This document shows positions 7,010 through 18,725 of a DNA stretch of 20,256 bases, piece after piece; within the stretch, counting starts at the first letter, position 1; every line of letters starts with the position of its first letter. The notes under the pieces are model-generated. The model was not told where the DNA came from and did no database searches. It was given only the letters and a program-made list of their open reading frames with translations. The translations under genes and the position numbers were made by a program. This stretch comes from a virus (taxonomy: Duplodnaviria > Heunggongvirae > Uroviricota > Caudoviricetes): the IMG/VR virus record IMGVR_UViG_2671180606_000002. The stretch is one strand, 5' to 3'.

Positions 7010-7289
7010 TTCTCAATCTCTCGATGGCGCAGCGCAGCAGATGCCAGTTGTTCAGGCTGACGAATAAAGTATAAATAAACTGGCTATGGTGTAAAGCCCC
7101 ACATAGCATGAACAAACACTACATATCAAATAGCTGGTACAAGGATAGAAATACGACATTTATTATTAAAAACGATTAGATAAATTACATTTTAATGTTA
7201 TGCAAAAGTTCTTTTTTATCATAACATTTCAATAAAAGCATTACAGATGCAATCATCCCGTCATCATCAATTATTTAAGGTGGTTAAAC

Positions 7290-7376
7290 ATGGAAAATAA
7301 CAAGTTCGCACATCTCGCTCCTTTTTTATCCGTAATCCTTTTCGCTTGTTGTTTTATATGGGCATTATTTTTATAA
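7290..7376 (+). CDS. Candidate small hydrophobic peptide (28 aa) in the AT-rich spacer
   Basis: ATG at 7290 preceded by AAGGTGG; product MENNKFAHLAPFLSVILFACCFIWALFL has a charged N-terminus and one predicted transmembrane helix, the shape of small membrane proteins or type I toxins; no homology recognised. Confidence 0.3.
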   Translation: MENNKFAHLAPFLSVILFACCFIWALFL

Positions 7377-7450
7377 AGTAGCCACATGATAAGTTGCTGG
7401 AATCATATTTCCCACTCAAGTCATTAACATTTGATAAGATATATCTAAAA

Positions 7451-7509
7451 GGACACCTTTACATTATTTATGTGTATATAATTTATTTATATACACAGTA
7501 AAGGTATCC
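7451..7509. repeat. Long imperfect palindrome with a perfect 10-bp core inverted repeat (TGTGTATATA-N7-TATATACACA)
   Basis: Core arms at 7471..7480 and 7488..7497 are exact reverse complements; outer arms GGACACCTTTAC (7451..7462) and GTAAAGGTATCC (7498..7509) pair with one mismatch. Confidence 0.6.
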
Positions 7510-7776
7510 TGGGAAAATATTTATCGTTAAAAAATACATCATAAATAATTAAGCTGAAATTTCAGAACACAACTAATACACACAATAAGGTTCAGTAACA
7601 ATAATCTATGTGGACTACATCGAGATTTTTTGATTAAACTTTAATAACTTATTCCTAACACACAGAATGCATAAACTAAAAGTAAAACAAATAGTTATAC
7701 GAAAAACAACCATATTTATTATATCTTCTCCTCTAATCAACATATCAATTATGTGTTTCATAACAGCTTGACATAA

Positions 7777-7815
7777 CCCTCAAAAACACGCATTTATAAT
7801 GCATGTTTTTGAGGG
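7777..7815. promoter_or_regulatory. NsrR-box-like palindrome over the -10 and ribosome-binding region of the yeaR-like gene
   Basis: 17-bp inverted arms CCCTCAAAAACACGCAT / ATGCATGTTTTTGAGGG (one mismatch) around TTATA; core AACACGCATTT-A-TAATGCATGTT (7785..7807) matches my recalled 11-1-11 NsrR consensus with about 2 mismatches; TATAAT at 7795..7800; TTGACA at 7768..7773 is 21 bp upstream. Confidence 0.45.
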
Positions 7816-7822
7816 GGTGGTT

Positions 7823-8161
7823 ATGACACACAAGAGAATTCCTAAAGATTGGGTAATCAAACGCTCAACTCCGTTCTTCACAAAAGAGAACGTACCTTCA
7901 GCGTTATTAACACATCATAATACAGCAGCAGGTGTTTTTGGGCAGTTGTGCGTAATGGAAGGCACTGTAACATATTATGGTTTTACTGATGAGAATGCTA
8001 CTGAACCGGAGATAAAAGTAGTCATTAATGCTGGCGCTTTTGCAACAAGCCCACCACAATACTGGCACCGTGTTGAACTAAGCGATGATGCTCAGTTTAA
8101 TATTAACTTTTGGGTCGCTCCAGACTTCTCGGGCGAAAAAGTCTATAGCACCAAAAAATAG
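7823..8161 (+). CDS. YeaR-like protein (DUF1971, TehB N-terminal-like domain)
   Basis: 112-aa product from ATG at 7823 (GAGGGGGTGG Shine-Dalgarno); conserved blocks RSTPFF..P......H.T..G....L.V..G.V.Y.G..DE...EP.......AG.FA..PP..WH.......D..FNI.F.VAP align by eye to E. coli YeaR. Confidence 0.8.
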   Translation: MTHKRIPKDWVIKRSTPFFTKENVPSALLTHHNTAAGVFGQLCVMEGTVTYYGFTDENATEPEIKVVINAGAFATSPPQYWHRVELSDDAQFNINFWVAPDFSGEKVYSTKK

Positions 8162-8190
8162 ATGATCATATTAAAAATGCTTTAACAGTC

Positions 8191-8228
8191 AGACCCGGCA
8201 GGGCTATCCCCGACGGGTCTCATTTTTG
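8191..8228 (+). terminator. Rho-independent terminator after the yeaR-like gene
   Basis: AGACCCG...CGGGTCT hairpin (8191..8220) followed by CATTTTTG, 30 nt after the stop codon. Confidence 0.55.
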
Positions 8229-8923
8229 TAAATATATTGGTTCTACATTGACAGGAGACTTCAACCATAAGAAGTAATCTGAATACTTGAGCAATAAATT
8301 TACTTAAGATTAATGAGCGCACCTTGCCGGACAAAGATAAACCAAGGTAACACCTTTTTTCTAGCCAGTATGTAATCAATCAGAAAGCCGCTCCATAAGA
8401 ACAACAGCAAGACAATAAATTGCCATTACAGCCGCAATAGCCAGCGCACATTTGAGAACCAGCACGACAACCCCCTGTATTAGACGCACACCAGTCCTGA
8501 TAAATATGAGGCTGTCTCGTCAGTGATTCAATACAACTATTGGGTATAGTTTCTGTGATTTTATTCTGTAGAAATGGAACACAACAACCAGTCACCACCA
8601 GCACTTCTTTAAATACGCCAAGTCCGACGCAAGCTAACCTTCTAGTCCGCTTTGAGCGAAAAGCGGACAGGAACATTCTGGTTAATAGATATCAATGCTA
8701 ACAAAAAAGCTCCCGATGGAGATTTTGAAACCGCTTCCACATAATGAAATAAAAGGATTTATTTCTGGTCATGCCCACACATTGACCACGTCGAAGTAAG
8801 TAGCTCCGCTTCGCGGAGTTACTTAAGATAATTTCTATGTAGTTCCATGCTATGATTTAATTTTCAAGTTACAAAATCTAAATCTACAAATGTCCATTTG
8901 GGTGTAAAATTACACAATCCTAT

Positions 8924-11297
<2,374 letters not shown>

Positions 11298-18328: not shown

Positions 18329-18523
18329 ATGAGATATGACAATGTTAAACCATGTCCATTTTGTGGTTGTCCATCAGTAACGGTGAAAGCCATTTCAGGA
18401 TATTACCGAGCGAAGTGTAACGGATGCGAATCCCGAACCGGTTATGGTGGAAGTGAAAAAGAAGCACTCGAAAGATGGAATAAACGAACCACTGGAAATA
18501 ATAATGGAGGTGTTCATGTATAA
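18329..18523 (+). CDS. ralR: Restriction alleviation protein RalR (Lar-like)
   Basis: 64-aa Cys-rich product MRYDNVKPCPFCGCPSVTVKAISGYYRAKCNGCESRTGYGG...; start chosen at ATG 18329 to match RalR length. Confidence 0.8.
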   Translation: MRYDNVKPCPFCGCPSVTVKAISGYYRAKCNGCESRTGYGGSEKEALERWNKRTTGNNNGGVHV

Positions 18524-18725
18524 AATTACCGCCACTATTGAAAAGGAAGGTGGCACTCCTACTAACTGGACAAGATATTCAAAATCTAAACTAACGAAAT
18601 CAGAATGCGAAAAAATGCTCTCAGGTAAAAAAGAAGCAGGCGTTTCCAGAGAGCAGAAAGTAAAACTGATAAATTTTAATTGCGAGAAACTTCAGTCCTC
18701 GAGAATTGCATTGTATTCAAATTAA
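18516..18725 (+). CDS. ydaC: Rac prophage protein YdaC
   Basis: 69-aa product from ATG at 18516 with GGAGGTG Shine-Dalgarno (MYKITATIEKEGGTPTNWTRYSK...); overlaps ralR stop. Confidence 0.75.
   Translation: MYKITATIEKEGGTPTNWTRYSKSKLTKSECEKMLSGKKEAGVSREQKVKLINFNCEKLQSSRIALYSN

What the first reader, a model, noticed from the sequence alone, without database searches (positions are those of the whole stretch)
7766..8228. yeaR-like cargo gene with an NsrR-type operator overlapping its promoter
The DUF1971 protein aligns by eye with E. coli YeaR, a recalled member of the nitric-oxide-responsive NsrR regulon. Its promoter region contains a 39-bp palindrome whose core AACACGCATTT-A-TAATGCATGTT closely matches the 11-1-11 NsrR box as I remember it, centred on the TATAAT at 7795..7800 and extending into the Shine-Dalgarno region. 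A clean hairpin-plus-T-run terminator follows the gene. Together this suggests a self-contained, NO-inducible prophage cargo gene.
Basis: partly seen in the sequence, partly recalled or inferred. Interest (0 to 1): 0.55.

Follow-up and report, generated by a model that had tools for sequence, protein, structure and literature searches.

The report
NO-repressor box on prophage DUF1971 gene
A Rac-like E. coli prophage carries a small stand-alone stress gene (the counterpart of Salmonella STM1808) that keeps a binding site for the host's nitric-oxide sensor NsrR over its promoter; this is a new prophage-borne case of a regulatory circuit that is already known.

Summary
Bases 7823..8161 (+) encode a 112-aa DUF1971 protein. 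A 39-bp palindrome (7777..7815) has a 23-bp core, 7785..7807 AACACGCATTT-A-TAATGCATGTT. That core scores 20 bits (P=8e-8) on an NsrR matrix I built from 26 published E. coli CFT073 sites. It is the best hit in the window and would rank about 9th of 27 known sites.

The strongest support is comparative. Orthologues in about 50 Enterobacteriaceae species all carry an 18-31-bit NsrR box (nearly all 24-31 bits) centred 27-39 bp before the start codon, as here.

Three corrections:
- The protein is the orthologue of Salmonella STM1808 and PDB 3DL3 (about 80% identity). It is only a paralogue of YeaR (43%).
The -10 position shared with orthologues is CATTTA (7791..7796), 17 bp away.
- The window's box is a weakened allele. 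Sister alleles score 26-29 bits.

The gene is accessory: 457 of 5426 complete E. coli genomes have it, always ≥95% identical, and the six loci I inspected are all Rac-like prophage DNA.

NsrR control of this family was predicted in 2005 and is reported for STM1808, so this is a new member of a known kind. One point stays open: the palindrome extends beyond the NsrR core and is the most variable stretch of the module.

The parts
7768..7773 (+). -35 hexamer TTGACA
   Evidence: Read from the sequence. Invariant in all 14 promoter alleles. Same relative position as TTTACA/TTGAC in orthologues.
7791..7796 (+). Most likely -10 (CATTTA), 17 bp after the -35. Positionally equivalent to TATTTT/CATATT/TATATT of orthologues. 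Weak match to consensus (2 of 6).
   Evidence: Sister alleles have CATTTT here and lose the TATAAT. Inferred; no transcription start site data.
7795..7800 (+). Alternative -10.
   Evidence: Becomes TTTAAT in alleles L083/L085/L118.
7785..7807 (.). NsrR-type 11-1-11 operator core AACACGCATTT-A-TAATGCATGTT, centred 27 bp before the ATG
   Evidence: 20 bits, P=8e-8, best in window. 19 of 23 positions carry the matrix's top base; C7789 costs 5.7 bits and T7797 1.1 bits. Orthologues carry 18-31-bit boxes (nearly all 24-31 bits) at -27..-39.
7777..7815 (.). 39-bp palindrome that extends the operator core by 8 bp on each side
   Evidence: Allele-specific and the most variable stretch of the module. 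Function of the extension unknown.
7811..7820 (+). Shine-Dalgarno stretch GAGGGGGTGG
   Evidence: Aligns with GGAGGT of orthologues 5-8 nt before the ATG.
7823..8161 (+). DUF1971 gene, 112 aa, orthologue of Salmonella STM1808 and PDB 3DL3
   Evidence: Pfam E=2.3e-26. 3DL3 E=3.5e-59 and YeaR 3BB6 E=1.6e-24. 73-80% identity to 12 orthologues in the alignment, up to 82% among fetched loci.
8191..8228 (+). Intrinsic terminator: bulged GC-rich hairpin plus CATTTTTGT
   Evidence: Fold -19.4 kcal/mol. Compensatory change in L086/L087, and a different but analogous hairpin plus T-run in L002/L084.

Best explanation
This is a self-contained accessory gene (a 'moron') of a Rac-like temperate phage of E. 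coli. It encodes the E. coli counterpart of Salmonella STM1808, a small DUF1971 protein.

Proposed mechanism:
- Its sigma-70 promoter is TTGACA, a 17-bp spacer, then CATTTA. The perfect TATAAT 4 bp further on is an alternative -10.
- The promoter is covered from about -18 to +5 by an 11-1-11 inverted repeat of the type recognised by NsrR, the host's [4Fe-4S] Rrf2-family repressor.
- Without nitrosative stress, holo-NsrR sits on the -10/+1 region and blocks RNA polymerase.
- NO nitrosylates the cluster, NsrR leaves, and a short-leader mRNA (about 16-20 nt) is made. It ends at the hairpin/T-run at 8191..8228.

The gene brought a pre-existing host-regulon operator with it, so the lysogen gains a third NO-inducible DUF1971 paralogue alongside yeaR and tehB. 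E. coli otherwise lacks this paralogue.

Shown here: the sequence features, the PWM score, the orthology, the positional conservation of the box, and the prophage context. Inferred: NsrR binding in vivo, NO induction, the transcription start and any fitness benefit.
For: - PWM: 20 bits, P=8e-8, best hit in the window, mid-range among 27 published sites. 8 of 2000 shuffles of the local AT-rich region reach it.
- Orthologues: 51 distinct orthologous promoters from Kluyvera, Leclercia, Enterobacter, Pantoea, Citrobacter, Klebsiella, Raoultella, Salmonella, Yokenella, Phytobacter and Photobacterium carry an 18-31-bit box (nearly all 24-31 bits). All but one are centred -27..-39 from the ATG. Elsewhere in the enterobacterial loci the best score is at most 14.2 bits.
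- Spacing: classical NsrR operators sit at the same distance from their start codons. ytfE -38, hcp -26, hmp -39, ygbA -29, tehA -38.
- Sister alleles of the same prophage gene have near-consensus boxes of 26-29 bits.
- The box is kept whatever lies next to the gene (ADA-HAM1-SIR2, Hok/KilA-N, QueH, IS1, three hypotheticals), so it does not belong to a neighbouring regulator.
- Literature: a 'tehB homolog' was predicted in the enterobacterial and Photobacterium NsrR regulons (PMC1274295). STM1808 is cited as NsrR-regulated with a role in virulence (PMC7527575 citing Karlinsey 2012). The Salmonella orthologue lies directly after nhaB-dsbB, which is the STM1808 position by my memory of LT2 numbering.
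Against: - There is no experimental datum for this locus.
- The window's allele has C at 7789, a base never seen at that position in the 26 training sites (-5.7 bits). NsrR affinity may be reduced, or in the worst case lost.
- The -10 assignment is ambiguous. CATTTA matches only 2 of 6 consensus positions and the perfect TATAAT is 21 bp from the -35.
- The palindrome is longer than any NsrR site needs.
- Vibrionaceae orthologues mostly lack a nearby box, so the link is lineage-specific.
- I could not read Karlinsey 2012. The STM1808 evidence is therefore second-hand.
Confidence: 0.8

Rival explanations
1. The NsrR box is a decaying relic in this allele. The gene came with an NsrR operator, but the T-to-C change at 7789 (with C7787 and T7797) has weakened binding enough that this copy is expressed constitutively or only leakily repressed. 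The central TATAAT may add to this.
For: The window core scores 20 bits against 26-29 bits for sister alleles. C7789 costs 5.7 bits and is absent from all 26 training sites. About half of the 44 sampled copies carry this core, so it is a stable, common variant.
Against: 20 bits still exceeds functional sites such as hmp (17-18 bits) and passes the published ln P threshold of -14.28 with ln P -16.3. Both half-sites keep the GCATTT/AATGCA core.
Confidence: 0.12
2. The 39-bp palindrome works mainly as a nucleic-acid structure, or as the site of a different symmetric protein, and the NsrR resemblance is secondary. Candidate structures are a DNA cruciform at the promoter, or an RNA hairpin in read-through or antisense phage transcripts that would hide the ribosome-binding site.
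For: Complementarity runs to +-19, beyond the +-11 NsrR core. As RNA it would fold at -26 kcal/mol, z=-6. Mirror positions 7779/7813, 7780/7812, 7782/7810 and 7787/7805 change together in some alleles. Citrobacter, Yokenella and R. planticola orthologues also have 37-47-bp palindromes with compensatory arm changes. Six classical NsrR operators have no such extension.
Against: The left arm lies between the -35 and the -10, so the gene's own mRNA cannot contain both arms. Many alleles and most genera (Kluyvera, Leclercia, Klebsiella) lack the extension yet keep the core. Covariation support is only moderate: 7 of 500 shuffles reach the score and 21% of cells are unpaired. No Rfam family matches here. 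Only the 23-bp core is conserved across genera.
Confidence: 0.05
3. The palindrome is a chance AT-rich inverted repeat at a constitutive promoter and has no regulatory role.
For: The region is AT-rich (36% GC), and 0.4% of shuffles of the region reach the same score.
Against: The same motif sits at the same distance from the start codon in about 50 species whose flanking DNA cannot otherwise be aligned.
Confidence: 0.03

Closest known systems
Salmonella enterica STM1808 (DUF1971 protein, NsrR regulon) and its chromosomal orthologues in Citrobacter, Klebsiella, Kluyvera and others; PDB 3DL3
   Same: About 79-82% amino-acid identity over the full length. NsrR box centred 27-39 bp before the ATG and overlapping the -10. 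Monocistronic, with a short leader.
   Different: Here the gene sits in a Rac-like prophage rather than after nhaB-dsbB. It lacks the Fur-box-like site that Kluyvera/Leclercia-type orthologues carry at about -75. The box is weaker and embedded in a longer palindrome.
E. coli yeaR-yoaG operon (NsrR-repressed, NarL-activated)
   Same: Same Pfam family; 43% identity. An NsrR 11-1-11 box lies in the promoter region.
   Different: Paralogue, not orthologue. No yoaG follows. The yeaR box is 78 bp before the ATG with a long leader. No NarL, FNR, Fur or CRP consensus sites were found at 7600..7830.
Classical NsrR operators (ytfE, hcp, hmp, ygbA, tehA)
   Same: 23-bp 11-1-11 inverted repeat, 26-39 bp before the start codon.
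   Different: None of them is symmetric beyond +-11 (1-4 of 9 outer positions complementary). The window allele has 8 of 8.
Phage morons (autonomous promoter-gene-terminator cassettes in temperate phages, for example lambda lom/bor)
   Same: Own promoter and terminator, orientation opposite to the surrounding phage genes, placed between functional modules, present in only some related prophages.
   Different: Expression is apparently wired to a host stress repressor through an operator imported with the gene. Only 3 of 50,697 phage records carry any DUF1971 homologue.

Membership tests
Pfam DUF1971 (PF09313) | Match to the family HMM above the gathering score | tested here: met
   92 bits against a cut-off of 23.1, E=2.3e-26, profile positions 1-80 of 80.
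STM1808 / 3DL3 subfamily of DUF1971 | Full-length, high-identity orthology (stand-alone protein of about 112 aa, N-terminus M-S/T-H-x-R-I-P, invariant H31 H32 C43 E46 H82) | tested here: met
   73-80% identity to 12 orthologues from 9 genera, with 57 invariant columns. 3DL3 matches at E=3.5e-59 over residues 1-111.
STM1808 / 3DL3 subfamily of DUF1971 | Chromosomal synteny (after nhaB-dsbB in Salmonella) | tested here: not met
   The Salmonella locus L033 has nhaB-dsbB upstream. The window copy lies between prophage genes. This is horizontal transfer of the gene, not a different family.
YeaR orthologue (yeaR-yoaG operon) | Close identity to YeaR and a downstream yoaG | tested here: not met
   43% identity. 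A terminator and then an oppositely oriented SIR2 gene follow. It is a paralogue.
TehB (SAM-dependent tellurite methyltransferase) | Methyltransferase domain; NCBIfam equivalog score | tested here: not met
   49 bits against a cut-off of 303. Only positions 11-106 of the 289-position profile (the N-terminal DUF1971 part) match. The RefSeq name 'TehB family protein' is loose.
NsrR operator / NsrR regulon | 11-1-11 inverted repeat that scores above threshold on a matrix from ChIP-verified sites | tested here: met
   20 bits, ln P -16.3, against the published cut-off of -14.28 (their matrix differs slightly from mine).
NsrR operator / NsrR regulon | Site overlaps the promoter or transcription start of the regulated gene | tested here: inconclusive
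   It overlaps both candidate -10 hexamers and lies 27 bp before the ATG, like ytfE, hcp, hmp and ygbA. No transcription start has been mapped.
NsrR operator / NsrR regulon | Site conserved upstream of orthologues (phylogenetic footprint) | tested here: met
   51 distinct orthologous promoters carry a box of at least 18 bits, nearly all 24-31 bits, at the same place.
NsrR operator / NsrR regulon | NsrR binding in vivo or in vitro, and derepression by NO or in an nsrR mutant | not testable with these tools
   Needs ChIP, gel shift, or a reporter or RT-qPCR assay in a carrier strain.
Phage moron | Autonomous promoter and terminator, not needed for the phage cycle, variable presence among related phages | tested here: met
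   Promoter and terminator as in the parts list. Present in 457 of 5426 E. coli genomes. The Rac-like prophages inspected keep it while neighbouring cargo varies. Dispensability is inferred.
Intrinsic (Rho-independent) terminator | GC-rich hairpin directly followed by a T-run, with the stem kept by compensatory change | tested here: met
   The stem is bulged and the T-run starts 2-3 nt after it, so the simple scan did not list it.

The most novel reading that the evidence does not exclude
The operator is more than an inherited NsrR box: it may be a fast-evolving palindrome that changes symmetrically. Across copies whose coding sequence is almost identical, it has produced a natural series of alleles from 17.6 to 29 bits, with or without an 8-bp arm extension. 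That would let different lysogens set different basal levels and NO thresholds for the same cargo gene. The driver could be selection, or quasi-palindrome template-switch mutagenesis. If so, palindromic operators on mobile elements would be mutational hot spots that rewire host-regulon control.
Probability: 0.15. Interest if true: 0.55.

Novelty: new member of a known kind. Interest (0 to 1): 0.35.

Why it matters
If NsrR does control this gene, a temperate phage is moving a ready-wired, NO-inducible stress gene between E. coli strains. The gene is the one reported to contribute to Salmonella virulence, and E. coli lacks it on its core chromosome. It would add to the nitrosative-stress regulon of about 8% of sequenced E. 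coli, which matters for survival in inflamed gut or in macrophages. It is also a clear example of a prophage gene that plugs into a host regulon through an imported operator. The natural alleles (20 versus 26-29 bits, with identical proteins) are a ready-made set for measuring how NsrR box sequence sets repression strength. The circuit itself is not new.

Tried and rejected
- Read the start codon as 7824 at first (wrong frame). The correct start is 7823.
- The simple promoter/terminator scan found neither the promoter nor the terminator on the + strand. Reasons: a 21-bp spacing or a weak -10 for the promoter, and a bulged stem for the terminator.
- Searched 7600..7830 for Fur, FNR, NarL (7-2-7 and single heptamer) and CRP consensus sites. 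None found, so there is no evidence for yeaR-like NarL co-activation or for the Fur box seen in Kluyvera-type orthologues.
- Considered a MerR-type long-spacer promoter because of the 21-bp spacing. Rejected, because the palindrome is centred on the -10, not in the spacer.
- Considered an RNA hairpin or riboswitch. There is no Rfam match, and the left arm lies upstream of any start from this promoter.
- Considered that the neighbouring TetR might use the palindrome. Rejected, because prophages without that TetR keep the box.
- Tried to read Karlinsey et al. 2012 by PubMed id and by PMC id. It is not held.
- Literature searches for NsrR+DUF1971 found nothing, and the two DUF1971 papers were irrelevant.
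- Vibrionaceae orthologues gave no nearby NsrR box. Only Neptunomonas and Parendozoicomonas loci have strong boxes, 0.6-1 kb away, and I did not pursue these.

Full report
**What is in the sequence.**
The finding's interval holds one gene and its control signals.
- The gene is 7823..8161 on the + strand and encodes 112 aa. The longest ORF starts at 7799, but twelve orthologues start M-S/T-H-x-R-I-P, which fits ATG 7823.
- Upstream lie TTGACA (7768..7773), a 39-bp palindrome (7777..7815; 19+1+19 with two mismatched pairs) and a G-rich ribosome-binding stretch (about 7811..7820).
- Downstream lies a bulged GC-rich hairpin (8191..8220) followed by CATTTTTG. It folds at -19.4 kcal/mol, z=-2.05.
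- The hairpin is supported by a compensatory GGG/CCC to GAG/CTC change in two alleles. A different but analogous hairpin plus T-run follows the gene in a third allele class.

**The protein.**
- Pfam assigns it to DUF1971 (E=2.3e-26).
- It matches only the N-terminal part of the NCBIfam TehB model, far below that model's cut-off (49 against 303 bits). It is therefore not a TehB methyltransferase.
- Against solved structures, the best match is 3DL3 ('tellurite resistance protein B', 119 aa; E=3.5e-59, about 80% identical).
- E. coli YeaR (3BB6) is much more distant (E=1.6e-24; 43% identity).
- A database search found a tight family at 73-82% identity in Salmonella, Klebsiella, Raoultella, Citrobacter, Kluyvera, Vibrio, Aliivibrio, Photobacterium and Shewanella.
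- The Salmonella member lies directly after nhaB and dsbB. By my memory of LT2 locus numbering that is the position of STM1808.
The gene is the orthologue of STM1808/3DL3 and a paralogue of yeaR.

**Is the palindrome an NsrR site?**
I built a symmetric position weight matrix from the 26 distinct 11-1-11 sites in Table 4 of the CFT073 NsrR ChIP-seq study (PMC5320621).
- The core 7785..7807, AACACGCATTT-A-TAATGCATGTT, scores 20.0-20.2 bits. P=8e-8 (ln P -16.3), against the paper's own threshold of -14.28.
- It is the best hit in the 20-kb window. It would rank about 9th of 27 known sites scored leave-one-out, above hmp.
- 19 of 23 positions carry the matrix's top-scoring base. The costly departures are C at 7789 (-5.7 bits; never seen at that position in the training set) and T at 7797 (-1.1 bits).
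- In 2000 dinucleotide shuffles of the AT-rich stretch 7010..8923, eight reach this score. In 458 kb of unrelated control DNA, five positions reach 20 bits.

**Comparative evidence.**
I fetched 80 loci that encode orthologues and scanned the 300 bp before each start codon.
- Every enterobacterial locus has an NsrR box centred 27-39 bp before the ATG, and all but one score 20 bits or more. This covers Kluyvera, Pantoea, Enterobacter, Leclercia, Pseudescherichia, Silvania, Buttiauxella, Citrobacter, Klebsiella, Raoultella, Salmonella, Yokenella and Phytobacter. Two Photobacterium loci have one as well.
- That gives 51 distinct promoters with a box of at least 18 bits, nearly all 24-31 bits.
- Elsewhere in the enterobacterial loci the best score is at most 14.2 bits.
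- The surrounding DNA cannot be aligned between genera, so the box is a genuine phylogenetic footprint.
- The classical operators of ytfE, hcp, hmp, ygbA and tehA lie at the same distance from their start codons (-26 to -39). The window's box is at -27.
- Most Vibrionaceae orthologues have no nearby box.

**Promoter geometry.**
That hexamer is 21 bp from TTGACA, and the consensus scan (16-18 bp spacers) lists no promoter here.
- In orthologues the layout is clear: TTTACA-17-TATTTT in Kluyvera and Leclercia, TTGACG-17-CATATT in Klebsiella, and an 18-bp spacer then TATATT in Citrobacter. In each case the -10 is the inner end of the left half-site.
- The equivalent hexamer in the window is CATTTA at 7791..7796, 17 bp from TTGACA.
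- Sister E. coli alleles have CATTTT there and TTTAAT in place of TATAAT.
- I therefore favour TTGACA-17-CATTTA. I keep TATAAT as an alternative because CATTTA is weak.
- Either way the box covers the -10 and the start point. The simplest mechanism is occlusion of RNA polymerase by holo-NsrR, relieved when NO destroys its Fe-S cluster. That property of NsrR is established knowledge and was not tested here.
- No Fur, FNR, NarL or CRP consensus was found at 7600..7830.

**Context.**
- The window is a Rac-like prophage integrated at ttcA. It carries intR, xisR, recET, ralR, ydaU/V, then cargo, then DUF1367/DUF1364/DUF1133 (nin/Q-like) genes, lysis genes and trkG. The RalA sRNA is at 18522..18700.
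- The DUF1971 gene points against the flanking phage genes.
- The 701-bp module occurs in 466 of 5426 complete E. coli genomes.
- The coding sequence occurs in 457 genomes, always at ≥95% identity. No diverged chromosomal copy is detectable at blastn sensitivity.
- It also occurs in three deposited phage genomes and in 35 IMG/VR contigs.
- No other phage among 50,697 records encodes any DUF1971 homologue.
- In six further E. coli loci the gene stays next to the DUF1367 gene or is flanked by IS elements. The slot on its other side holds ADA-HAM1-SIR2, three hypotheticals, Hok/Gef plus KilA-N, QueH or IS1.
- It is therefore a stable moron beside a variable cargo slot, and its box cannot belong to a neighbouring regulator.

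**What is already known.**
- Rodionov et al. (PMC1274295) predicted a 'tehB homolog' in the NsrR regulons of enterobacteria and Photobacterium.
- Later papers list STM1808 as NsrR-regulated with a role in virulence, citing Karlinsey et al. 2012 (PMC7527575). I could not obtain that paper.
- yeaR is an accepted NsrR target.
- The circuit is therefore known. What is new is its carriage by a temperate phage into E. coli, which lacks the chromosomal orthologue.

**The unexplained part.**
- The palindrome is 16 bp longer than the NsrR core. Six classical operators show no symmetry beyond +-11.
- The palindrome is also the most variable stretch of the module. Allele L085 differs from the window at 9 of 42 palindrome positions, against 4 of 377 upstream and 1 of 339 coding positions.
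- Among 44 copies there are 14 promoter alleles. About half share the window's 20-bit core, and the rest score 26-29 bits apart from one at 17.6.
- Some changes are mirror-symmetric: 7779/7813, 7780/7812, 7782/7810 and 7787/7805.
- A formal count gives only moderate support. Four pairs have double changes, 7 of 500 shuffles reach the covariation score, and 79% of cells are paired.
- Citrobacter, Yokenella and Raoultella planticola orthologues also have 37-47-bp palindromes with compensatory arm changes. Kluyvera, Leclercia and Klebsiella do not.
- The left arm lies between the -35 and the -10, so the gene's own mRNA cannot form the hairpin.
- Quasi-palindrome template-switch mutation is a documented process in E. 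coli (my knowledge, not tested). It is the most economical explanation. Extra protein contacts or a cruciform cannot be excluded.

**Verdict.**
It is a new, prophage-borne member of a known regulatory kind. Confidence that NsrR regulates this promoter is about 0.8, and interest is modest.

Noticed in passing
window 8924..11249 (- strand): A three-gene operon beside a divergent TetR gene. It encodes an adenosine deaminase (PADLOC CARF_ADA deaminase part, E=6.5e-36), a HAM1/ITPase-like NTP pyrophosphatase (no PADLOC hit) and a short SIR2 protein (ThsA SIR2 domain, E=8.9e-32). It occupies a slot that holds quite different cargo in sister prophages, so it looks like an anti-phage defence candidate.
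   Followed up: partly
window 11241..11263: Second-best NsrR matrix hit of the window (17.4-17.7 bits, P about 5e-7). It overlaps the annotated start codon (11249, - strand) of the adenosine deaminase gene. One good half-site (AAGATCCATTT) and one poor one. It may be chance.
   Followed up: no
window 7777..7815 compared with L083, L085, L002, L086 and IMG/VR loci L095-L129: The operator palindrome is a divergence hot spot. Up to 11 differences fall in 42 bp, while the 339-bp coding sequence differs at 0-13 positions. There are 14 promoter alleles among 44 copies, and several changes are mirror-symmetric.
   Followed up: partly
L004-L025 (Kluyvera, Leclercia, Pantoea, Enterobacter, Buttiauxella, Silvania, Pseudescherichia), L056 and L076 (Photobacterium), about 75-91 bp before the ATG: A Fur-box-like sequence (GATAATGAGATTcATTATC; 2-5 mismatches to the 19-bp consensus) sits at a fixed position just upstream of the -35 in these orthologues. 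In 2107 control chunks, none has 4 or fewer mismatches and 18 have 5 or fewer. This suggests dual Fur and NsrR control. The window copy has no such site (best match 7 mismatches).
   Followed up: partly
L026-L051 (Citrobacter), L060 (Yokenella), L073 (Raoultella planticola): The NsrR boxes of these chromosomal orthologues are embedded in 37-47-bp near-perfect palindromes. The outer arms differ between species but stay complementary (catTtat/ataAatg, catCtat/ataGatg, caCCtat/ataGGtg).
   Followed up: partly
window 18522..18700 (- strand): RalA antitoxin sRNA of the Rac ralR/ralA toxin-antitoxin pair (Rfam RF02694, 225 bits). This confirms the Rac-type identity of the prophage.
   Followed up: no
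L067, L077 (Neptunomonas), L070 (Parendozoicomonas): Strong NsrR-type boxes (21.6-23.9 bits, some paired about 25-35 bp apart) lie 0.65-1.08 kb from the DUF1971 gene in these marine gammaproteobacteria. They presumably belong to neighbouring genes.
   Followed up: no
PMC2884951 compared with PMC1274295: Rodionov 2005 predicted a 'tehB homolog' as an NsrR target. Gilberthorpe 2007 then tested Salmonella tehA and tehB proper and found no regulation (1.1-fold). The predicted gene may have been the DUF1971 paralogue (STM1808 type) rather than tehB itself.
   Followed up: no
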